This document shows, one piece after another, positions 2,137 to 39,608 of a stretch of DNA of 64,000 bases; position 1 is the stretch's first letter; each line of letters starts with the position of its first letter. The notes beneath the pieces are model-generated. The model had not been told where the DNA came from. It made no database searches and saw only the letters and a program-made list of their open reading frames with translations. The position numbers and the translations under genes were made by a program. Source of the DNA: Escherichia phage vB_EcoM_ACG-C40; the sequence record NC_019399.1. One strand, 5' to 3'.

Positions 2137-3139
2137 AACTTACCAATTCAATCCAAGCCGGACGAAGTACATCTTGTACCATTTTAACTAATTCCTTCTT
2201 AATCAAAGAAGGATTATCCGCTTGAGTTAGAGTAATACCTTCACGAGAAGTTTCTTCCAAAATATCTTGAACAGTTAGCCCCATCACCTTTCCAAAATCT
2301 TTTGGACCAATTTCACCAATTTTAGAAATAACGTTATTTACTCGGTTCAGTGTAACGTAGCAAGCTAAAATTCCCACCAATTTGTTATCAGCTTCTGATA
2401 GTTCAACTTTAGCTTTAATAGGCTTATCAGACTTTTTCTTTTCACTAAATTTGGAATTCTTGCATTTGATGGCTACACGATTTCCATTATGAAGTCAAGA
2501 AGGATAACAAGGTTTCAATACATATCCTTCAGCGGTAAATACTTCGCCTTTGGCTTCAGCTTTCCAAACACATTTGTTAGCGTCAACTAATCCAGCATGG
2601 TCTACTGTAAAATTATAATCTTGGACGACAGAATCTAAATCATTTGGCAATTTAATAAGCTCTTCAAATTTACCGCGACCTAAAAGTGGAGCCATTTTAA
2701 ATTTAAATGTATTACAAAATGATTCCATCATATAATCATCGACATAAGTCACATCACCACTTTCTGTAGTGACAATAATGTCAAATACATAAAAATCTTT
2801 ATCGCCATAATCGACATTCTTCTGAATGCCAGGTCCAGCGAATTCGCCAAAGACTTGATAAGATACAACCGCTGAGGTTTCCATAATATCTTGTACTGCT
2901 TTAATAGAATCTTCGTAATTCTTTAGAATAATTTCATACCCAAAGAAATCTTCAGCAGGAAGAATCGGTCCAGTACGTTTAGCGCAAGTTACTTTATCAC
3001 GCTCAATAATCAATGAGAAATTTGTGCCGTGAATCTTTTCACGAGCTACCCACTCCCCACCAGTCAATCCCAAGCTATAAAGTTTTTCAATAAATTTAGA
3101 GTTGTAATGATTTTCAAGACTGCTATACTTTTTAAACAT
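2135..3139 (-). pseudogene. rnlB: RNA ligase 2 (Rnl2) reading frame interrupted by in-frame TGA at codon 215 (2495..2497)
   Basis: N-terminal ORF 2495..3139 has ligase motif I EKIHGTN; frame continues in phase through *LHNGNRVAIKCKNSKF (motif V lysines) into ORF 2135..2380; total 334 codons plus stop. Confidence 0.8.
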
Positions 3140-3148
3140 AATTAATCC

Positions 3149-3427
3149 TCAAAATGTAATTTCTAACCAATCACCATCACGCTGATCACTATTGACTTTA
3201 AAGCTGAATCCTTCTTTTCTCAGCCAATCACCAATTTCTTCAGTAATCAATTTATCACGAGCAATACAATAATAACTAAAATGTGTTTTACCTTGTTCAG
3301 CTGCTTTATTAGCAAGTTCCGAAAAATCTTTAATAAAACACTCTAGCTTAAACTGTTTACTTTTAAGTGCTTTTTCGCGCAATTGATTAGCAAAAGATTC
3401 ATTTTCATAAAGATCATACTGTTCCAT
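3149..3427 (-). CDS. hypothetical protein (92 aa)
   Basis: ORF track; compact spacing downstream of rnlB. Confidence 0.55.
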   Translation of the reverse strand: MEQYDLYENESFANQLREKALKSKQFKLECFIKDFSELANKAAEQGKTHFSYYCIARDKLITEEIGDWLRKEGFSFKVNSDQRDGDWLEITF

Positions 3428-3629
3428 TTTTCACCTTTTTATTGATATGTCTTTTTCTATAGACGACTTTTTCTCGAGTTTCAAATTTATTTTTAGCAGT
3501 CATAGCTCGAGCCCATAATACAGCCACTTCTTTTGCCTGTAAGTTTAATTCACGAGCAATTTCAATGAATGACTTTCCAGACTCATGAAGAGTAAACACC
3601 ACAACCTCAGTTCTCATAATCAATCTCAT
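3414..3629 (-). CDS. hypothetical small protein with helix-turn-helix-like segment (71 aa)
   Basis: ORF track; segment ESGKSFIEIARELNLQAKEV resembles an HTH. Confidence 0.5.
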   Translation of the reverse strand: MRLIMRTEVVVFTLHESGKSFIEIARELNLQAKEVAVLWARAMTAKNKFETREKVVYRKRHINKKVKNGTV

Positions 3630-3689
3630 GTTATCGAGTTGATGCCATTATATACATCATTTTCTGAGTATGTTTTGTGTGCTTTCAAA

Positions 3690-3717
3690 ATGAAGAAAGG
3701 GGCCGAAGCCCCTTATG
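3690..3717 (-). terminator. hairpin terminator downstream of hoc
   Basis: ggggccgaagcccc stem, T-run on - strand. Confidence 0.6.
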
Positions 3718-3730
3718 ATTATGATTATGA

Positions 3731-4871: not shown

Positions 4872-5552
4872 TTATTTTAATGTTACGAAAGAAGAGTTGC
4901 GTGTTTCACGAATTAAAACTGATCCGTCACGGTTAATGTAATAAATTAAGCTAAATAAAGTTTGGTGTGCTGACGCATGTTCAAAACTAGTTGGGTGAGA
5001 TTTCCAATCAGGAGTTTCAGCAATCCATTGATAAATCCACCAAGGAACAGTACAGAATCCTGGATTTTTTCCAATCAACTGAAGATTCGGGCTAAAGTTT
5101 TCCGGAAGAGTAAATACAGACGGCTTTTCAGATTCAATAATCTCAGCTACAGCCTGTTCAAATTTTTCTTCAACAAATGGAGTATCTTCAATCAAAACAT
5201 CGGTATTTTCAGGAATTTTATCTGTTTCTACTACTTCAATTTTAATGTCAGATTTAACCGGAGAATCAATCAAAAGTGCTGCTTCTGGATTGACTTCTTC
5301 ATCGTCATATTTTAACCCCTCTGCAGCATCAGCAGCATCAATTAAGTCTTTAATAGATAACCCATCAGTCTCCGGCATAGGTTCACTAGCGAGCTTCTGG
5401 AGGGCTTCTTCAATATCAACAACGATATTATCAAAAGATTTATTCTTTTTGACCTTTATACCAAACTGTTCAGCATATTCAGCTAATTTAGCTTTAGCTT
5501 CTTTGTTATCATCAAGAGCCTTCAGCTCTGCAATATAATCTTTATCTATCAT
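4872..5552 (-). CDS. inh: inhibitor of prohead protease (Inh)
   Basis: 226-aa acidic ORF adjacent to hoc, as in T4. Confidence 0.7.
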   Translation of the reverse strand: MIDKDYIAELKALDDNKEAKAKLAEYAEQFGIKVKKNKSFDNIVVDIEEALQKLASEPMPETDGLSIKDLIDAADAAEGLKYDDEEVNPEAALLIDSPVKSDIKIEVVETDKIPENTDVLIEDTPFVEEKFEQAVAEIIESEKPSVFTLPENFSPNLQLIGKNPGFCTVPWWIYQWIAETPDWKSHPTSFEHASAHQTLFSLIYYINRDGSVLIRETRNSSFVTLK

Positions 5553-5566
5553 AATATTTCCTCAGT

Positions 5567-5574
5567 ATAAATAT
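5567..5574 (+). promoter_or_regulatory. late promoter TATAAATA upstream of seg-like gene
   Basis: exact TATAAATA 28 nt upstream of ATG at 5602. Confidence 0.6.
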
Positions 5575-5601
5575 AGATATATTTATTACTCGGAAAATAG
5601 T

Positions 5602-6219
5602 ATGTACCACTTTGTATATGAAACAACAAATCTAATAAATGGTAAAAAGTATATAGGAAAACACTCTACTGATGACTTGAATGATGGTTACCTTGGTTCC
5701 GGTAAGGCAATTCAGCAGGCTATAAAGAAATATGGTGAAAACAATTTCTCTAGAACAATACTAAAAGAGTTTAAAACTTCCGAAGAAGCGTACATGTATG
5801 AAGAAGAAATTATAACTCCTGAAATAATAAAAAGCAAAAATTATTATAATATGAAACCTGGCGGAATTGGTGGAATTGTTATGACTACAGAGGTTATAGC
5901 AAAGATGAAAGAATCTTCCGCTAAGAGATTTGAAAACTCACCGGGCACGGTATTAGGTACAACTTGTTACACTAATGGAACTAAAAATATTTTTATTAAG
6001 CCTGGAGAACTTGTTCCAGAAGGATTTGTAAAAGGGATGGTTCATCCTAATAGAAAGTCCAGAAAAGGATGTAAAGTCAAACCGACTACCACAGGAACTT
6101 TTTGGGTCAATAATGGTGCAATAAATAAATTAATACAACCAGACGGTATTATTCCCGACGGATTTATTAAAGGTCGTCTCATGAAAAGAGATTCTAAAGG
6201 CAAATTTAGTAAGGCATAA
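5602..6219 (+). CDS. GIY-YIG homing endonuclease, Seg-like (SegE-like by position)
   Basis: N-terminal GIY-YIG motifs (GKKYIGKHS ... GYLGSG); C-terminal repeated NG...IP.GF.KG DNA-binding modules; sits between inh and uvsW. Confidence 0.75.
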   Translation: MYHFVYETTNLINGKKYIGKHSTDDLNDGYLGSGKAIQQAIKKYGENNFSRTILKEFKTSEEAYMYEEEIITPEIIKSKNYYNMKPGGIGGIVMTTEVIAKMKESSAKRFENSPGTVLGTTCYTNGTKNIFIKPGELVPEGFVKGMVHPNRKSRKGCKVKPTTTGTFWVNNGAINKLIQPDGIIPDGFIKGRLMKRDSKGKFSKA

Positions 6220-6221
6220 TT

Positions 6222-7730
6222 ATGGATATTAAAGTACATTTTCACGACTTCAGTCATGTACGCATCGATTGTGAAGAGAGCACGTTCCACGAATTAAGAG
6301 ATTTCTTTTCGTTTGAGGCCGATGGATATAGATTTAACCCTCGCTTCAGATATGGCAACTGGGATGGACGAATTCGTCTTTTAGATTATAATCGCCTTCT
6401 TCCATTCGGTTTAGTCGGGCAAATTAAAAAGTTCTGCGATAACTTTGGCTATAAAGCCTGGATTGACCCACAGATTAACGAAAAAGAAGAATTATCAAGA
6501 AAAGATTTTGATGAATGGCTTTCTAAATTAGAAATCTATTCAGGAAATAAAAGAATTGAACCGCATTGGTATCAAAAAGATGCAGTGTTCGAAGGATTAG
6601 TTAATCGTCGTAGAATTCTTAATCTTCCAACATCCGCAGGTAAATCTTTAATTCAAGCTTTGCTTGCTCGGTATTATTTGGAAAATTATGAAGGCAAAAT
6701 TCTTATTATTGTTCCAACAACTGCTCTGACAACTCAGATGGCTGATGACTTTGTTGACTATCGTTTATTCAGTCATGCAATGATAAAGAAAATCGGTGGT
6801 GGAGCATCAAAAGATGATAAATATAAAAATGATGCACCGGTCGTTGTTGGTACATGGCAAACTGTAGTAAAACAACCGAAAGAATGGTTCTCACAGTTTG
6901 GAATGATGATGAATGATGAATGTCATCTTGCTACAGGAAAAAGTATTTCATCTATCATATCAGGTTTAAATAACTGCATGTTCAAATTCGGTTTGTCTGG
7001 TTCATTACGTGATGGCAAAGCCAATATCATGCAGTATGTTGGAATGTTCGGTGAAATATTTAAGCCAGTAACGACCTCTAAATTAATGGAAGATGGACAA
7101 GTAACTGAGTTAAAAATTAATAGTATTTTTCTTCGCTATCCCGATGAGTTCACTACTAAATTAAAGGGAAAAACTTATCAAGAAGAAATAAAAATTATTA
7201 CTGGGCTTAGTAAAAGAAATAAATGGATCGCTAAATTAGCTATTAAGCTTGCGCAAAAAGATGAAAACGCTTTTGTCATGTTTAAACATGTATCGCACGG
7301 TAAAGCTATTTTCGATTTAATTAAAAATGAATACGATAAAGTTTATTACGTATCAGGGGAAGTTGATACCGAAACCCGCAATATAATGAAAACCTTAGCT
7401 GAAAATGGTAAAGGAATAATTATAGTAGCGAGTTATGGTGTATTTTCTACTGGTATTTCAGTTAAAAATCTGCATCATGTTGTTTTAGCGCACGGTGTTA
7501 AATCTAAAATTATTGTATTGCAAACAATAGGTCGCGTATTACGTAAGCATGGTTCTAAGACAATAGCAACAGTCTGGGACCTCATAGATGACGCGGGCGT
7601 GGTTTCTAAATCAAAAACATCTTCTAAAAAATACTCGCATTTAAACTATCTTTTAAAACATGGACTTGATCGTATTCAGCGTTATGCTGATGAAAAGTTT
7701 AATTATGTGATGAAAGAGGTTAAACTTTGA
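6222..7730 (+). CDS. uvsW: UvsW DNA/RNA helicase
   Basis: 502-aa ORF with SF2 helicase motifs (GKS, DECH), start MDIKVHFHDFSHV. Confidence 0.9.
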   Translation: MDIKVHFHDFSHVRIDCEESTFHELRDFFSFEADGYRFNPRFRYGNWDGRIRLLDYNRLLPFGLVGQIKKFCDNFGYKAWIDPQINEKEELSRKDFDEWLSKLEIYSGNKRIEPHWYQKDAVFEGLVNRRRILNLPTSAGKSLIQALLARYYLENYEGKILIIVPTTALTTQMADDFVDYRLFSHAMIKKIGGGASKDDKYKNDAPVVVGTWQTVVKQPKEWFSQFGMMMNDECHLATGKSISSIISGLNNCMFKFGLSGSLRDGKANIMQYVGMFGEIFKPVTTSKLMEDGQVTELKINSIFLRYPDEFTTKLKGKTYQEEIKIITGLSKRNKWIAKLAIKLAQKDENAFVMFKHVSHGKAIFDLIKNEYDKVYYVSGEVDTETRNIMKTLAENGKGIIIVASYGVFSTGISVKNLHHVVLAHGVKSKIIVLQTIGRVLRKHGSKTIATVWDLIDDAGVVSKSKTSSKKYSHLNYLLKHGLDRIQRYADEKFNYVMKEVKL

Positions 7731-8419
7731 ATTATAAATTAATATATGATAATTTAATTAATAGAGCCCAGAATCGGGCTCGCCTTAATGGATACACTGA
7801 AACTCATCATATAATTCCTAGATGTATGGGTGGTACAGATGATAGGTGTAATTTAGTAGAACTAACAGCTGAAGAACATTTTATAGCCCATAAACTTTTA
7901 GCTAAAATTCATCCAAATCATTACGGTATAATTAAAGCCGTTATATGTATGGGAATGAACTCAAAGACTCATGAAAGACACGTTAATAAATCTTACGCAT
8001 GGGAACGTCGTAAAATGGCAGAACTTCAATCCGGTGAAGGTAATCCATTTTACGGAAAACACCATACGGAAGAACATAAACAATATATGTCAAAACTCAT
8101 GAAAAGTCGTCCAATTACATGGGGAAATAAAATTAGTAAAACTAAAAGAATGAACCCAACAAAATGGACCGAAGAAGCTAAAAGATTACATTCAATCAAT
8201 CAATCGGGTAAAAATAATGGCATGTATGGAAGGAAACATTCCGCTAAATCTATTCAGAAAATTAAAGATAACATGCCAGATAATTCAGGAGCTAATAACC
8301 CAGCTGCTAAACCTATAGAAGTAAATGGTGTTAAATATAAATGTATGAAAGACGCTTCTAAAGCTACTGGATTATCAATGTACAAACTAAGAATACTCAG
8401 AAAAACAGTTAATTTATAA
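7727..8419 (+). CDS. HNH homing-endonuclease-like protein (Mob-like) with NUMOD-like repeats and C-terminal HTH
   Basis: HHIIPRCMGGTDDRCNLVELTAEEHFIAH motif; repeated G(K/R)(H/K)HS/T modules; ATGA overlap with uvsW stop. Confidence 0.8.
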   Translation: MNYKLIYDNLINRAQNRARLNGYTETHHIIPRCMGGTDDRCNLVELTAEEHFIAHKLLAKIHPNHYGIIKAVICMGMNSKTHERHVNKSYAWERRKMAELQSGEGNPFYGKHHTEEHKQYMSKLMKSRPITWGNKISKTKRMNPTKWTEEAKRLHSINQSGKNNGMYGRKHSAKSIQKIKDNMPDNSGANNPAAKPIEVNGVKYKCMKDASKATGLSMYKLRILRKTVNL

Positions 8420-8436
8420 GGGCTTCGGCCCTTTGG
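8418..8436 (+). terminator. hairpin after HNH gene
   Basis: aagggcttcggcccttt stem; the T-run is short (ttt) before ggag. Confidence 0.4.
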
Positions 8437-8444
8437 AGAAAAAG

Positions 8445-8675
8445 ATGTTACTAGAATTTAAACAATTTCTTTATGAAGCTTCTATTGATGAATTTATGGG
8501 TAAAATTGCCTCTTGTCAAACATTAGAAGGTTTAGAAGAACTTGAAGCTTATTATAAGAAAAGAGTTAAAGAAACTGAATTAAAAGATACTGATGACATC
8601 TCAGTCAGAGATGCTTTGGCAGGAAAAAGAGCTGAATTAGAAGATTCAGACGATGAAGTAGAAGAAAGCTTTTAA
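8445..8675 (+). CDS. uvsW.1: UvsW.1 small acidic protein
   Basis: 76-aa product MLLEFKQFLYEASIDEF..., recognised as T4 UvsW.1; ORF track begins 4 codons earlier. Confidence 0.7.
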   Translation: MLLEFKQFLYEASIDEFMGKIASCQTLEGLEELEAYYKKRVKETELKDTDDISVRDALAGKRAELEDSDDEVEESF

Positions 8676-8730
8676 ATTAAAAAAGGCCCAACCAAAAAGG
8701 AAGGGCCAAAACTATAGACTAAAGGTCACA

Positions 8731-8898
8731 CTATAGCAAAAGTTGCGTTTCATTTAATTGTTCTTCCGAACTTTCTGAAACTGGTAGTTCTTTAATGTAA
8801 TTATAGCAAGGCCCAGGATGTACAGGACCTTTGTCTGTTTCAACAACCAATGCAGAATCGATTGGAGTTTTACAGACAACACAAATCTTATCTGACAT
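8731..8898 (-). CDS. small Cys-containing protein (55 aa), uvsY.-2 position
   Basis: hand-translated MSDKICVVCKTP...HPGPC...; GGAG SD upstream; below ORF-track length cutoff. Confidence 0.5.
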   Translation of the reverse strand: MSDKICVVCKTPIDSALVVETDKGPVHPGPCYNYIKELPVSESSEEQLNETQLLL

Positions 8899-8926
8899 GA
8901 TTGTCTCCTCTGAATTATATATCTAT

Positions 8927-9151
8927 TTATACAACTCTCATATGCATATCAATGCCCATATCTTTAGAATAAAAATATTCATCAAGATATCCGGCAAATT
9001 TTCCTTTAATATAAAGAACATCTTCACCGCACGGGTGGTCGGCCAGGATACGAATATCCTGACGCTTGAGATTATACTTTTTCATTAAGAATTGAATTTC
9101 CGTTTCGAATTCTTCTTCATAATTAAAAGCATCATCAATGCTATATTTCAT
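8927..9151 (-). CDS. hypothetical protein (74 aa), uvsY.-1 position
   Basis: ORF track; immediately downstream of uvsY. Confidence 0.55.
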   Translation of the reverse strand: MKYSIDDAFNYEEEFETEIQFLMKKYNLKRQDIRILADHPCGEDVLYIKGKFAGYLDEYFYSKDMGIDMHMRVV

Positions 9152-9564
9152 TATTTTCCAGCCTCAAATGCTCGCATGTCTTGAATATGCTTAATAGCAA
9201 ATCCGCGTGATTTAATAGCATCAAGAGCTCCGCTACAGAAATCCAATAAAATCCCCCAATACTGCAACGAGGTATCAACCTTTAAAACATCCTTATCAGC
9301 TGATAGAACTGTCTTCATTTCTGATTTCTCGTAACGATCCATACTAAATTCATCACCATCTCCTCGTCCCGAGTAGTAGTCTAATTTAGCTTTAAGAGCA
9401 ACTTTTTTCTGTGCATCAATTCTAAGCATTTCCTTTTTAATACTTGAATGCTTATTAAGCCATTTACTATATAACATCACATTATTAGCTGCTTCATACT
9501 GTAATTTAGTCGAATCTATAAACACATCTTTCTTCAATTCTTCTTGAAGATCTTCTAATCTCAT
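9151..9564 (-). CDS. uvsY: recombination mediator UvsY
   Basis: 137-aa ORF MRLEDLQEELKKDVFIDSTKLQYEAANN..., recognised. Confidence 0.9.
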   Translation of the reverse strand: MRLEDLQEELKKDVFIDSTKLQYEAANNVMLYSKWLNKHSSIKKEMLRIDAQKKVALKAKLDYYSGRGDGDEFSMDRYEKSEMKTVLSADKDVLKVDTSLQYWGILLDFCSGALDAIKSRGFAIKHIQDMRAFEAGK

Positions 9565-36702: not shown

Positions 36703-37014
36703 TTACACCGCCATTTTTCCTTTCAAGACGCCGTGGGACTGATAATCTTTGAGAACGAAATCTTTAGGCCTGAGTTTAAGAATGTATTCCAATTGTTCTT
36801 TAGTAGAAAGATAGCGGAATTTATAAGGCAATCCGCCTATTACCAGTTCACAAAGCTCTTTAGGTTCACGACGCAAAATTTCTTTACATTGTTCTACGTG
36901 ATTCATATAGATATGAGTATTACCACCGGAAAATATCAAATCTCCCGGAATAAGATTACACATCTTAGCTACAATATGAACTAACGTAGCATATGATGCA
37001 ATATTAAATGGAAG
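36703..37014 (-). CDS. td: thymidylate synthase, exon 2 (residues 184-286)
   Basis: begins LPFNIASYATLVHIV immediately after intron 3' end ...ACATAATG. Confidence 0.9.
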   Translation of the reverse strand, partial: LPFNIASYATLVHIVAKMCNLIPGDLIFSGGNTHIYMNHVEQCKEILRREPKELCELVIGGLPYKFRYLSTKEQLEYILKLRPKDFVLKDYQSHGVLKGKMAV

Positions 37015-38030
37015 CATTATGTTCAGATAAGGTCGTTAATCTTACCCCGGAATTATATCCAGCTGCATGTCACCATGCAGATCAGACTATATCTCCAACT
37101 TGTTAAAGCAAGTTGTCTATCGTTTCGAGTCACTTGACCCTACTCCCCAAAGGGATAGTCGTTAGGCATTTATGTAGAACCAATTCCATTTATCAGATTT
37201 TACACGATAAGTAACTAATCCAGACGAAATTTTAAAATGTCTAGCTGCATCTGCTGCACAATCAAAAATAACCCCATCACATGAAATCTTTTTAATATTA
37301 CTAGGCTTTTTACCTTTCATCTTTTCTGATATTTTAGATTTAGTTATGTCTGAATGCTTATGATTAAAGAATGAATTATTTTCACCTGAACGATTTCTGC
37401 ATTTACTACAAGTATAAGCAGAAGTTTGTATGCGAACACCGCACTTACAAAACTTATGGGTTTCTGGATTCCAACGCCCGTTTTTACTTCCGGGTTTACT
37501 GTAAAGAGCTTTCCGACCATCAGGTCCAAGTTTAAGCATCTTAGCTTTAACAGTTTCAGAACGTTTCTTAATAATTTCTTCTTTTAATGGATGCGTAGAA
37601 CATGTATCACCAAACGTTGCGTCAGCAATATTGTATCCATTAATTTTAGAATTAAGCTCTTTAATCCAAAAATTTTCTCGTTCAATAATCAAATCTTTCT
37701 CATATGGAATTTCTTCCAAAATAGAACATTCAAACACATTACCATGTTTGTTAAAAGACCTCTGAAGCTTTATAGAAGAATGGCATCCTTTTTCTAAATC
37801 TTTAAAATGCCTCTTCCATCTCTTTTCAAAATCTTTAGCACTTCCTACATATACTTTATTGTTTAAAGTATTTTTAATCTGATAAATTCCGCTTTTCATA
37901 AATACCTCTTTAAATATAGAAGTATTTATTAAAGGGCAGTCCTACAATTTAGCACGGGATTGTCTACTAGAGAGGTTCCCCGTTTAGATAGATTACAAGT
38001 ATAAGTCACCTTATACTCAGGCCTCAATTA
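37015..38030 (-). mobile_element. td group I self-splicing intron (1016 nt) carrying I-TevI
   Basis: 5' end TAATTGAGGCCTGAGTATAAGGTGACTTATAC... directly after exon-1 ...TTGGGT; 3' end ...CTGAACATAATG; matches the T4 td intron as recalled. Confidence 0.9.
37162..37899 (-). CDS. GIY-YIG homing endonuclease I-TevI (intron-encoded)
   Basis: 245-aa ORF MKSGIYQIKNTLNNKVYVGSAKDFEKRW..., zinc finger CxxC...CxxC, C-terminal HTH. Confidence 0.95.
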   Translation of the reverse strand: MKSGIYQIKNTLNNKVYVGSAKDFEKRWKRHFKDLEKGCHSSIKLQRSFNKHGNVFECSILEEIPYEKDLIIERENFWIKELNSKINGYNIADATFGDTCSTHPLKEEIIKKRSETVKAKMLKLGPDGRKALYSKPGSKNGRWNPETHKFCKCGVRIQTSAYTCSKCRNRSGENNSFFNHKHSDITKSKISEKMKGKKPSNIKKISCDGVIFDCAADAARHFKISSGLVTYRVKSDKWNWFYINA

Positions 38031-38578
38031 ACCCAAGAAAACATCTACTGATCGTTGATACCACTGCAAATCCAAATAGCCATTACGCACATTAAACTGA
38101 TAGAACATATGACAAGGCGGTAATGCCATCTGCTTGAGTTCAGCTGGATTCCATGCTGAAACAATTTGACGCCTATCATTTGGCAGTTTTTTAATACGAT
38201 CAATAACTTCTATAATTTGGTCTACACCACCAAAATCACGCCACTGTTTTCCATAAATTGGACCAAGTTCACCGCTATGGTATCCTAAATCTTTTGCTTG
38301 ATTTTCGTAATTTTCATCCCAAACTGTTTTGCCTTGGATTAACGAATCATGTTGAATTAATCGCAAATCATTGACATTTGTGCTTCCCGATAAAAACCAA
38401 AGCAGCTCAGCAATGCAAGCTTTCCAGGCGAGCTTCTTAGTTGTTACTGCAGGAAAACCTTTAGTTAAATCCCAGCGTAATTTAGTACCGAACAAAGCAA
38501 TTGTTCCTGTGCCTGTTCGGTCATCGGTTTCGTAGCCATTTTCCAGGATATCTTTAATTAAAAATTGGTATTGTTTCA

Positions 38579-38579
<1 letters not shown>
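38031..38579 (-). CDS. td: thymidylate synthase, exon 1 (residues 1-183)
   Basis: starts MKQYQFLIKDILENGYETDDRTGTGT; ends ...QRSVDVFLG at the 5' splice site. Confidence 0.9.

Positions 38580-39608
<1,029 letters not shown>

What the first reader, a model, noticed from the sequence alone, without database searches (positions are those of the whole stretch)
7727..8419. HNH endonuclease gene inserted between uvsW and uvsW.1
A 230-aa ORF with a canonical HNH motif (HHIIPRCMGGTDDRCNLVELTAEEHFIAH), repeated NUMOD-like modules and a C-terminal HTH sits exactly between uvsW and uvsW.1, coupled to uvsW by an ATGA overlap. As I recall T4, uvsW and uvsW.1 are directly adjacent, so this looks like a free-standing homing endonuclease that has invaded the junction.
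Basis: partly seen in the sequence, partly recalled or inferred. Interest (0 to 1): 0.5.

Follow-up and report, generated by a model that had tools for sequence, protein, structure and literature searches.

The report
Mob-type HNH homing endonuclease at uvsW
A selfish "homing endonuclease" gene of a well-known phage type sits in the last codons of the uvsW helicase gene of this T4-like phage; it is real, intact and absent from T4, but the same gene is already annotated in phage T6 and about 45 other public genomes, so it is an ordinary finding.

Summary
The 230-aa ORF at 7727-8419 (+) is real. It encodes an intact T4 Mob-type HNH endonuclease: an N-terminal H28/N42/H51 nuclease domain, two NUMOD3 modules and an I-TevI-like C-terminal helix-turn-helix.

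T4, T2, RB32 and about 450 other Tequatrovirus records lack exactly 689 bp here. Forty-seven records carry the gene at 97-100% identity, including T6, Yersinia phage PST and UFV-AREG1.

Orthologues of 53-69% identity occupy the same uvsW|uvsW.1 junction in all six other lineages examined.

- The start codon is TTG, so the overlap is TTGA, not ATGA.
- The insert (7716-8404) lies inside the last four uvsW codons. It supplies a replacement UvsW C-terminus (EVKL*) and a Shine-Dalgarno sequence. The endonuclease ORF ends on the displaced native uvsW codons (TVNL*).

All 30 fixed differences between carriers and non-carriers fall in the 115 bp just upstream (7595-7709). This looks like a co-conversion tract or immunity allele.

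pN/pS of 0.04-0.09 shows the protein is under selection.

Cleavage and homing are inferred, not shown.

The element is a known kind and already annotated in public records, but I found no paper that characterises it. Interest is low to moderate.

The parts
5566..5573 (+). TATAAATA match to the T4 late-promoter consensus. It is a candidate promoter for a segE-uvsW-HNH-uvsW.1 late transcript.
   Evidence: This is the only + strand match in 5000-9200. It is a pattern match only. The sigma-70-type scan found no promoter-like site directly upstream of the endonuclease start; one 9/12 match (7880-7908) lies inside the ORF.
5602..6219 (+). segE, a GIY-YIG free-standing homing endonuclease gene that flanks uvsW on the 5' side.
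   Evidence: Pfam SegE_GIY-YIG E=3e-9. Annotated segE in T4, T6 and PST.
6222..7730 (+). uvsW helicase, 502 aa. It is the host and probable target gene.
   Evidence: Pfam UvsW_N E=8e-44, ResIII, DEAD and Helicase_C.
7595..7715 (+). Endonuclease-linked variant 3' end of uvsW. It encodes ...DDAGVVSKSKTSSKKYSH...GL...MK, compared with DDCGVKPKSANTKKKYVH...GI...MK in non-carriers. It is a candidate co-conversion tract and/or cleavage-immunity allele.
   Evidence: All 30 fixed differences between 6 carrier and 7 non-carrier Tequatroviruses lie at 7595-7709, and none lies elsewhere in uvsW or downstream. The 151-bp block is >=98% identical only in the 47 carrier records.
7716..8404 (+). The 689-bp insert relative to T4, T2 and RB32. 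The boundaries are ambiguous by a 3-nt AAA microhomology.
   Evidence: BLAST junctions place the left homology end at 7715 and the right homology start at 8402, with a 3-nt overlap. Non-carrier records span 1004 bp instead of 1693 bp.
7716..7730 (+). Replacement uvsW terminus brought by the insert: GAGGTTAAACTTTGA = E-V-K-L-stop. It contains the GAGG Shine-Dalgarno sequence (7716-7719) for the endonuclease.
   Evidence: Sequence. Compare T4/T2 ACAGTTAATTTATAA = T-V-N-L-stop. A KEVKL-type terminus is native to Proteus phage PM2.
7727..8419 (+). HNH homing endonuclease ORF, 230 aa. The TTG start overlaps the uvsW stop (TTGA).
7727..7954 (+). HNH (beta-beta-alpha-metal) nuclease domain, residues 1-76. 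The catalytic residues are H28, N42 and H51, plus H27 and H55.
   Evidence: These columns are invariant in 40 homologues. The AlphaFold model shows beta25-28, beta43-46 and helix 48-61 with pLDDT >90. Profile hits include the EcoKMcrA HNH (E=2.3e-4), a group II intron maturase and Cas8-HNH.
7764..7781 (+). RNA hairpin GAGCCC-AGAAUC-GGGCUC, 37 nt into the ORF. This is the position homologous to the internal terminator of T4 mobE. There is no U-tract here.
   Evidence: Fold, z=-2.8 for 7700-7800. The T4 mobE hairpin lies at the same offset. The mobE terminator is described in PMC2790892. Function here is untested.
8006..8092 (+). First NUMOD3 module, residues 94-122.
   Evidence: Pfam PF07460, best stretch 94-122.
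8195..8410 (+). Second NUMOD3 module plus the C-terminal helix-turn-helix, about residues 157-228. It is homologous to the I-TevI DNA-binding domain but has no zinc finger.
   Evidence: phmmer to 1i3j E=0.006. Profile E=1.1e-5. Foldseek to 1i3j prob 0.99, TM(target) 0.47. The only Cys residues are at 33, 41, 74 and 206.
8402..8419 (+). Native Tequatrovirus uvsW terminus (AAAACAGTTAATTTATAA = K-T-V-N-L-stop), now read as the last codons and stop of the endonuclease.
   Evidence: It is identical to the uvsW end of T2, RB32, PYps55T and others.
8420..8444 (+). Native intergenic spacer: a GGGCUUCGGCCC hairpin and the GGAG Shine-Dalgarno sequence of uvsW.1. It is unchanged by the insertion.
   Evidence: It is identical in carrier and non-carrier phages.
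8445..8675 (+). uvsW.1, 76 aa.
   Evidence: Pfam UvsW-1 E=1.7e-30. Start as annotated in PST, T6 and RB32.

Best explanation
This is a free-standing, Mob-type HNH homing endonuclease gene that has invaded the 3' end of uvsW in a subset of T4-like phages.

**Shown**
- The cassette (7716-8404) replaces the last four uvsW codons with its own EVKL-stop.
- It carries a GAGG ribosome-binding site.
- It starts at a TTG that overlaps the uvsW stop.
- It ends by reading into the displaced native uvsW codons (TVNL-stop).
- uvsW, the endonuclease and uvsW.1 all remain intact ORFs.

**Inferred**
- The gene has no promoter of its own. It is made in small amounts late in infection from the segE-uvsW transcript, by termination-reinitiation at the weak TTG start.
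- In a mixed infection, the protein binds the uvsW 3' region of a phage that lacks the gene, using its NUMOD3 and helix-turn-helix modules.
- It then nicks or cuts that region with the HNH site.
- Recombinational repair copies the gene, plus about 115 bp of linked variant uvsW sequence, into the cut genome.
- Carriers are protected because their own copy of the target is altered, either by the variant block (7595-7709) or by the insertion itself.
For: **Intact protein of the right family**
- PHROG 655 E=2e-60. NUMOD3 x2.
- 41% identity to T4 MobE, E=7e-34.
- H28, N42 and H51 are invariant.
- The predicted beta-beta-alpha fold has pLDDT >90.
- An I-TevI-type DNA-binding domain matches at E=1.1e-5.

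**Purifying selection**
- pN/pS is 0.04-0.09.

**Presence/absence polymorphism at one site**
- Forty-seven records carry the gene at >=95% identity.
- About 450 Tequatrovirus records lack exactly 689 bp. T4, T2 and RB32 are among them.

**Same junction across lineages**
- All seven lineages of the orthogroup (53-98% identity) have the gene at the same junction with the same NTGA overlap.
- They are this Tequatrovirus, Klebsiella phage Roth21, Gaprivervirus DK-13, Bragavirus PM2, Morganella phage Rgz1 and two metagenomic contigs.

**Linked foreign tract**
- Thirty of 30 fixed carrier/non-carrier differences lie within 7595-7709. None lies in the other roughly 1.4 kb of uvsW or in the 330 bp downstream.
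- A similar rise in divergence towards the insert appears in Roth21 vs KPV15 and in DK-13 vs VR25.

**Expression design matches T4 mob genes**
- T4 mob genes are described as promoterless, with a start that overlaps the upstream stop and an internal 5' hairpin (PMC2988022, PMC2790892).
Against: - No experiment shows cleavage, nicking or biased inheritance for this protein. I found no paper on it.
- The target site is not identified.
- Four non-carrier phages (LH2 and OES_C-1, -2, -3) carry the variant 7595-7637 segment without the gene. That segment is therefore not strictly tied to the endonuclease and may simply be a circulating uvsW allele.
- No Pfam HNH model matches.
- The TTG start is inferred from conservation of the N-terminus and of the NTGA overlap. 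It has not been measured.
- The late promoter is a bare consensus match.
Confidence: 0.8

Rival explanations
1. The gene is a retained HNH protein that no longer homes. Either it serves the phage, for example by cutting competing phage genomes (marker exclusion) or by acting as a DNA-binding regulator, or it is kept because deleting it would damage uvsW or uvsW.1 expression.
For: - Strong purifying selection (pN/pS 0.04-0.09) would also fit a function useful to the phage.
- The cassette supplies the uvsW stop codon and its C-terminal residues, so imprecise loss would damage uvsW.
- For MobE, Wilson and Edgell note that a role other than homing could not be excluded (PMC2790892).
Against: - Only about 10% of Tequatrovirus records carry it, so it is dispensable.
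- It occupies the same site in seven lineages, with foreign flanking sequence. That is the signature of site-specific mobility, not vertical retention.
- Competition and homing are not mutually exclusive.
Confidence: 0.1
2. It is an inactive relic, like I-TevIII in T4. It persists by linkage or by trans-mobilisation from the nearby segE endonuclease, which cuts uvsW.
For: - segE lies 1.5 kb upstream (5602-6219) and targets uvsW (Table 1 of PMC2988022).
- Co-conversion tracts in T4 can reach 2 kb (PMC2790892).
Against: - The ORF is full length in all six copies examined, with the catalytic residues intact and pN/pS of 0.04-0.09.
- At least 10 carrier records lack segE, for example UFV-AREG1 and G8.
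- The other genera with the orthologue show no segE beside it.
Confidence: 0.05
3. The gene is ancestral at this junction. T4 and most relatives lost it by deletion, so it is not an insertion in this lineage.
For: - It is present at the same junction in several genera.
- In DK-13 and PM2 the gene is flanked by 17-21 nt direct repeats that could mediate precise deletion.
Against: - In Tequatrovirus the left repeat copy and the adjoining 115 bp are foreign: 30 fixed differences, and a KEVKL terminus as in PM2. The right copy is the native sequence. This is what an incoming cassette would leave, not a deletion.
- Non-carrier junctions are uniform in each of three genera. In Jiaodavirus and Gaprivervirus they keep the native uvsW/uvsW.1 stop-start overlap.
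- The orthologues are only 53-69% identical, and the genera that carry them also have non-carrier members.
- Cycles of gain and loss are nevertheless likely.
Confidence: 0.05

Closest known systems
T4 MobE (free-standing HNH homing endonuclease between nrdA and nrdB; Wilson & Edgell 2009, PMC2790892)
   Same: - 41% identity over 181 aa, E=7e-34. The first 60 residues are about 75% identical, including the HHIIPRCMGG...NLVELTA.EHFIAH motif.
- Both contain NUMOD3 repeats.
- Both are free-standing.
- In both, the start codon overlaps the stop of the upstream gene.
- Both have an RNA hairpin at the same offset (37 nt) inside the 5' coding region.
- Both appear to depend on upstream promoters.
   Different: - The genomic site and presumed target differ: the uvsW 3' end rather than nrdB.
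- The C-terminal third is unrelated. Here it is an I-TevI-like helix-turn-helix, whereas MobE ends in a Cys-containing tail.
- The start is TTG rather than ATG.
- The hairpin lacks the U-tract that makes the mobE hairpin a terminator.
- Nicking and homing are shown for MobE and untested here.
The same gene as already annotated in public genomes: T6 ORF179 (MH550421; 'homing endonuclease' in AP018814/NC_054907), Yersinia phage PST 'mobD' (KF208315), UFV-AREG1, HY03, G28 and others
   Same: - 97-99.9% nucleotide identity.
- Identical position, length (693 bp) and junctions.
   Different: - Nothing of substance differs. The window differs from the closest copy (UFV-AREG1) by one nucleotide.
- Annotation is inconsistent: hypothetical protein, mobD, MobE, group I intron endonuclease, NUMOD3 motif protein.
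- The label 'mobD' is a misnomer. T4 mobD lies at nrdC.11/mobD.1.
I-TevI DNA-binding domain (PDB 1i3j / 1t2t)
   Same: - The C-terminal 75-80 residues align to the I-TevI minor-groove helix (NUMOD3) and helix-turn-helix subdomains.
- Profile E=1.1e-5, Foldseek prob 0.99, 24-27% identity.
   Different: - The catalytic domain is HNH, not GIY-YIG.
- There is no zinc finger.
- The gene is not intron-encoded.
I-HmuI (intron-encoded HNH nicking endonuclease of Bacillus phage SPO1, PDB 1u3e)
   Same: - The general plan is the same: an N-terminal HNH domain followed by extended DNA-binding modules and a C-terminal helix-turn-helix.
   Different: - There is no detectable sequence match.
- The gene is not in an intron.
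- The structural match is too weak to count as evidence.

Membership tests
HNH (beta-beta-alpha-metal) nuclease superfamily | General-base His, structural Asn and metal-binding His in an H-N-H arrangement | tested here: met
   H28, N42 and H51 (and H55) are invariant in a 40-sequence alignment. H27 is >=90% conserved.
HNH (beta-beta-alpha-metal) nuclease superfamily | Beta-hairpin followed by an alpha-helix carrying the motif | tested here: met
   The AlphaFold2 model shows beta25-28, beta43-46 and helix 48-61. Block pLDDT is 92-96 for residues 1-70.
HNH (beta-beta-alpha-metal) nuclease superfamily | Significant sequence match to curated or solved HNH domains | tested here: inconclusive
   - Profile vs PDB: EcoKMcrA HNH E=2.3e-4, group II intron maturase E=0.013, Cas8-HNH E=0.058.
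- No Pfam HNH model matches at E<0.01.
- NCBIfam gives only IscB at E=0.013, below its cut-off.
T4 Mob-type free-standing HNH homing endonucleases (MobA-E) | Sequence homology to Mob proteins | tested here: met
   BLASTP to T4 MobE gives 41% identity, E=7e-34. PHROG 655 'homing endonuclease' matches at E=2e-60.
T4 Mob-type free-standing HNH homing endonucleases (MobA-E) | Free-standing: between genes, not inside an intron or intein | tested here: met
   The ORF lies between intact uvsW and uvsW.1 ORFs. No Rfam family, including group I or II introns, is found in the window.
T4 Mob-type free-standing HNH homing endonucleases (MobA-E) | Promoterless cassette whose start overlaps the upstream ORF | tested here: met
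   - There is a TTGA start/stop overlap.
- The overlap is conserved as NTGA in six other lineages.
- No sigma-70-type match lies directly upstream of the start, and no TATAAATA lies between 5566 and the ORF.
- Transcription itself was not measured.
T4 Mob-type free-standing HNH homing endonucleases (MobA-E) | Orthology to a named T4 mob gene (same locus) | tested here: not met
   T4 has no gene at this site. T4 mobA-E lie at other loci (Table 1 of PMC2988022). This is a separate orthogroup: 54-98% identity within it, then a drop to <=43%.
Homing endonuclease gene (functional definition) | Presence/absence polymorphism at a fixed site among close relatives | tested here: met
   Forty-seven carrier records versus about 450 records that lack exactly 689 bp.
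Homing endonuclease gene (functional definition) | Same insertion site in diverged genomes | tested here: met
   All seven lineages examined have it at uvsW|uvsW.1.
Homing endonuclease gene (functional definition) | Linked co-converted flanking sequence | tested here: met
   All 30 fixed differences are confined to the 115 bp next to the insert. Four recombinants break the linkage at 7637/7643.
Homing endonuclease gene (functional definition) | Site-specific cleavage or nicking of the allele that lacks the gene | not testable with these tools
   This needs in-vitro or in-vivo cleavage mapping.
Homing endonuclease gene (functional definition) | Super-Mendelian inheritance in mixed infection, dependent on the catalytic motif | not testable with these tools
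   This needs phage crosses.
I-HmuI-type intron-encoded HNH endonucleases | [quoted passage not shown] | tested here: not met
   There is no intron. The flanking ORFs are complete and abut the gene.
I-HmuI-type intron-encoded HNH endonucleases | Structural similarity to 1u3e | tested here: inconclusive
I-TevI-type DNA-binding domain | NUMOD3 minor-groove helix plus helix-turn-helix | tested here: met
I-TevI-type DNA-binding domain | Zinc finger | tested here: not met
   The only Cys residues are C33, C41, C74 and C206. There is no CxxC cluster in the C-terminal half.

The most novel reading that the evidence does not exclude
The cassette may be a self-contained 'terminal-codon swap' element. 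It inserts at a conserved Lys codon four codons before the uvsW stop. It brings its own replacement helicase C-terminus, stop codon and ribosome-binding site, and it finishes its own ORF on the displaced host codons. This has happened in at least three lineages (Tequatrovirus, DK-13, PM2).

The unusual UvsW tail linked to it (GVVSKSKTSS instead of the cross-genus conserved GVKPKSAN) may be a cleavage-immunity allele. That allele can also circulate without the endonuclease, as in LH2 and the OES_C phages. If so, there would be a three-allele cycle in natural T-even populations: sensitive, immune without the gene, and immune with the gene.
Probability: 0.3. Interest if true: 0.4.

Novelty: already known. 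Interest (0 to 1): 0.25.

Why it matters
**Limited general importance**
- Free-standing HNH homing endonucleases are a textbook feature of T-even phages.
- This exact gene is already deposited, and mostly annotated as a homing endonuclease, in T6 and dozens of relatives.

**What is useful**
- It corrects inconsistent annotation (hypothetical protein, mobD, MobE, group I intron endonuclease) and fixes the TTG start.
- It defines the cassette to the nucleotide. The cassette rewrites the C-terminus of an important recombination helicase.
- It narrows the likely target or immunity region to 115 bp of uvsW, which gives a ready-made T6 x T2 cross experiment.
- In this phage uvsW is bracketed by two unrelated homing endonuclease genes (segE and this one). 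That makes it a good natural case for studying how such genes drive mosaicism of a core replication and repair gene.

Tried and rejected
- **Pfam and NCBIfam for an HNH model.** No significant hit. I relied instead on invariant residues, the model and profile-vs-PDB matches.
- **Donor search for the foreign 115-bp uvsW block.** Nothing outside the carrier set exceeds 90% identity. The donor lineage is not in the phage collection.
- **Hairpin at 7764-7781 as an intrinsic terminator.** Rejected as a confident call. There is no U-tract, and the + strand terminator scan did not report it.
- **TATAAATT at 7733 as a late promoter.** It is 7 of 8 only and lies downstream of the start codon. Not pursued.
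- **Frameshift or readthrough fusion of UvsW with the endonuclease.** Rejected. There is no slippery site, and ATG, GTG or TTG is conserved at the NTGA overlap in all lineages.
- **A terminal direct repeat as a universal feature.** Rejected. It is near-perfect in DK-13 and PM2, diverged in the window, and absent in Roth21, L021, L022 and Rgz1.
- **Rfam scan of the whole window.** No family at gathering threshold.
- **Literature searches for a description of this gene.** None found. One search and one look-up failed on a term that was too short.
- **Base composition.** The insert is unremarkable at 32.7% G+C, against 34.7% for uvsW.
Full report
**1. What is there**

The window is a Tequatrovirus (T4-like) genome segment. 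Region 5500-9200 is 98.5% identical to Shigella phage ESh30 and Yersinia phages PYPS2T and PYps11T, and 97.9-98.0% identical to T6.

ORF 7727-8419 (+) encodes 230 aa. It is flanked by these genes:
- uvsW, 6222-7730 (Pfam UvsW_N E=8e-44, ResIII, Helicase_C).
- uvsW.1, 8445-8675 (Pfam UvsW-1 E=1.7e-30).
- segE, 5602-6219, just upstream of uvsW (GIY-YIG).

One detail is wrong. The sequence reads ...AAACTTTGAATT..., so the start is TTG (7727) overlapping the uvsW stop TGA (7728-7730). The overlap is TTGA, not ATGA. A GAGG Shine-Dalgarno sequence lies 7 nt upstream, at 7716-7719.

**2. What the protein is**

Sequence families:
- Pfam detects only two NUMOD3 stretches (E=7.5e-14) and no HNH model.
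- PHROG 655 'homing endonuclease' matches at E=2e-60 over residues 1-217.
- T4 MobE is the closest T4 paralogue: 41% identity over 181 aa, E=7e-34, with a nearly identical HNH core.

Nuclease domain:
- In a 40-sequence alignment, E25, H28, P31, C33, G36, N42, E50, H51 and H55 are invariant.
- The AlphaFold2 model has mean pLDDT 84, and above 90 over residues 1-70. It places H28 at the end of beta25-28, N42 before beta43-46 and H51 in helix 48-61. This is the beta-beta-alpha-metal arrangement.
- A profile of the family hits the EcoKMcrA HNH domain (E=2.3e-4).

DNA-binding domain:
- The same profile hits the I-TevI DNA-binding domain over residues 147-222 (E=1.1e-5).
- Foldseek's top hit is also 1i3j (prob 0.99).
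- There is no zinc finger.

Among six Tequatrovirus copies there are three haplotypes with 32 variable nucleotides but only 7 variable residues. pN/pS is 0.04-0.09. The protein is therefore under purifying selection.

**3. It is an insertion, and where exactly**

T4 (NC_000866) has uvsW and uvsW.1 adjacent. They are annotated as one 587-aa ORF because of the known reference error (PMC1524935; PMC6486255).

BLAST of the window against six carrier and seven non-carrier Tequatroviruses gives these junctions:
- Left homology ends at 7715.
- Right homology resumes at 8402.
- The two overlap by a 3-nt AAA.

The insert is therefore 689 bp (7716-8404). Non-carrier records span 1004 bp instead of 1693 bp.

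The ancestral uvsW end is ATG AAA ACA GTT AAT TTA TAA (M-K-T-V-N-L-stop). In the window:
- uvsW now ends ATG AAA GAG GTT AAA CTT TGA (M-K-E-V-K-L-stop).
- The endonuclease ends AGA AAA ACA GTT AAT TTA TAA (R-K-T-V-N-L-stop), followed by the unchanged intergenic hairpin and uvsW.1.

So the cassette sits inside the last four codons of uvsW. It supplies a replacement C-terminus, stop codon and ribosome-binding site, and it borrows the displaced codons and stop for its own end.

**4. Distribution**

- The gene is present at >=95% identity, full length, in 47 phage records, all at this site. They include T6 x3, PST, PYPS2T, UFV-AREG1, HY03, G28, EC121 and KFS-EC3.
- About 450 other records with >=90% identical flanks lack it.
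- Annotations vary: 'homing endonuclease', 'mobD/MobE', 'group I intron endonuclease', 'NUMOD3 motif protein' and 'hypothetical protein'.
- In the 5.8-billion-protein search the orthogroup is sharply bounded. P0001-P0013 have 54-98% identity and 224-233 aa. The next hits drop to <=43%.
- Every orthologue whose context I examined lies between uvsW and uvsW.1, with its start overlapping the uvsW stop:
  - Klebsiella phage Roth21 (ATG).
  - Gaprivervirus DK-13 (TTG).
  - Bragavirus PM2 (GTG).
  - Morganella phage Rgz1.
  - Two metagenomic contigs.
- In non-carrier relatives from those genera (KPV15, VR25), the uvsW stop overlaps the uvsW.1 start. In carrier genomes such as Roth21, DK-13 and PM2, that coupling junction is recreated on both sides of the gene.
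- In DK-13 and PM2 the gene is flanked by 17-21 nt near-perfect direct repeats of the uvsW terminus, so UvsW and the endonuclease end in the same residues (IKQVEI and KEVKL).
- This repeat is diverged in the window and absent in four other lineages.

**5. Evidence for mobility**

An alignment of the whole uvsW-to-uvsW.1 region (6 carriers, 7 non-carriers) shows 30 fixed differences. All lie at 7595-7709, the 115 bp next to the insertion point.
- None lies in the remaining roughly 1.4 kb of uvsW, where polymorphisms are mosaic and shared between the classes.
- None lies in the 330 bp downstream.

The 151-bp block is >=98% identical only in the 47 carrier records.

The left repeat copy (KEVKL) is of the type found in PM2, not in Tequatrovirus. 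The simplest reading is as follows:
- A foreign donor cassette entered by recombination.
- The left crossover was near 7595.
- The right junction formed at a Lys-codon microhomology in the uvsW terminus.
- The cassette then spread within the genus by homing.

Divergence also rises towards the insert in Roth21 vs KPV15 and in DK-13 vs VR25. These are single pairs only.

Four non-carrier phages (LH2 and OES_C-1, -2, -3) are recombinants. They have the carrier state at the 21 fixed sites 7595-7637, the non-carrier state at the nine sites 7643-7709, and no insert.

The variant segment changes a UvsW tail motif, GVKPKSANxKKKYVH, to GVVSKSKTSSKKYSH. The original motif is conserved in T4, T2, Roth21, DK-13 and PM2. 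This makes the segment a candidate target or immunity region, but the data do not prove it. The insertion junction itself is the alternative target.

**6. Expression (inferred)**

- No promoter-like element lies directly upstream of the gene.
- The only + strand TATAAATA in 5000-9200 is at 5566, before segE.
- T4 uvsW is a late gene (general knowledge).
- The weak TTG start overlapping the uvsW stop suggests low-level coupled translation. This matches the down-regulation theme described for T4 mob genes (PMC2988022).
- A 6-bp G+C-rich hairpin at 7764-7781 lies at the same offset (37 nt) as the internal terminator of T4 mobE. It lacks a U-tract. Its role is unknown.

**7. Comparison with the known, and novelty**

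The element works like, and belongs with, the T4 Mob-type free-standing HNH homing endonucleases. It is not an orthologue of any named T4 mob gene. It is not intron-encoded, unlike I-HmuI and I-TevIII.

The gene is already in public records and is mostly labelled a homing endonuclease. T6's tally of 'mob-like' HNH genes in Petrov et al. 2010 (PMC2993671) presumably includes it.

I found no paper that characterises it or describes its junction anatomy.

**Verdict:** The element is a known kind and already annotated. The modest new points are the exact boundaries, the codon-swap anatomy, the 115-bp linked tract and the recombinant alleles.

Noticed in passing
window 5602-6219 (+): - segE (GIY-YIG homing endonuclease) abuts the uvsW start, so uvsW is bracketed by two unrelated homing endonuclease genes.
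- At least 10 records that carry the HNH gene lack segE (for example UFV-AREG1), so the two assort independently.
- The first 200 bp of uvsW next to segE are the most polymorphic part of the gene: 48 mosaic sites in 6222-6421.
   Followed up: partly
window 36703-38591 (-): - An I-TevI ORF (37162-37899, 245 aa) contains a stretch identical to the I-TevI DNA-binding domain of PDB 1i3j.
- It lies between two thymidylate synthase (td) ORF pieces (38028-38591 and 36703-37017), which is the td group I intron arrangement.
- The Rfam gathering scan nevertheless reported no intron family.
   Followed up: partly
window 1-64000: tblastn with the HNH protein finds no second Mob-type HNH domain anywhere in the 64 kb. 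The window includes the td region, next to which T4 carries mobE (by general knowledge of the T4 map), so this phage appears to lack mobE. The nrdA/nrdB junction itself was not inspected.
   Followed up: no
L003 (T4 NC_000866) 3676-3692: The T4 reference reads TTTA-ATAAGC where all other Tequatroviruses read TTTATAAGGGC. This creates the annotated 587-aa UvsW/UvsW.1 fusion, which is the known reference-sequence error.
   Followed up: yes
L002 (T6 MH550421) 2223-3730: In this T6 record uvsW is annotated as two CDS (2223-3320 and 3386-3730). This implies a frameshift or sequencing error. The window's uvsW is an intact 502-aa ORF.
   Followed up: no
L015 (Proteus phage PM2) 745-1620: PM2 uvsW is additionally split into two 'DNA helicase' CDS by an extra 291-aa ORF. 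This may be a second mobile insertion within uvsW.
   Followed up: no
L017 (LH2) and L018 (OES_C-1), equivalent to window 7595-7715: These phages lack the endonuclease gene but carry a recombinant uvsW 3' end. They have the carrier-type sequence up to 7637 and the T2-type sequence from 7643. They may represent an immune allele without the gene, or a partial conversion product.
   Followed up: partly
window 7727-7915 vs T4 mobE (L016 1500-1690): - The first roughly 190 nt of the gene, including the hairpin segment, match Tequatrovirus mobE at 72-74% DNA identity.
- The DNA match to the Klebsiella orthologue (Roth21) only starts at nt 64.
- This hints at recombination between paralogous HNH 5' ends within Tequatrovirus genomes.
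   Followed up: no
window 8420-8431: A GGGCUUCGGCCC hairpin (UUCG tetraloop) lies immediately before the uvsW.1 Shine-Dalgarno sequence. It is native to all Tequatroviruses whether or not they carry the insert.
   Followed up: no
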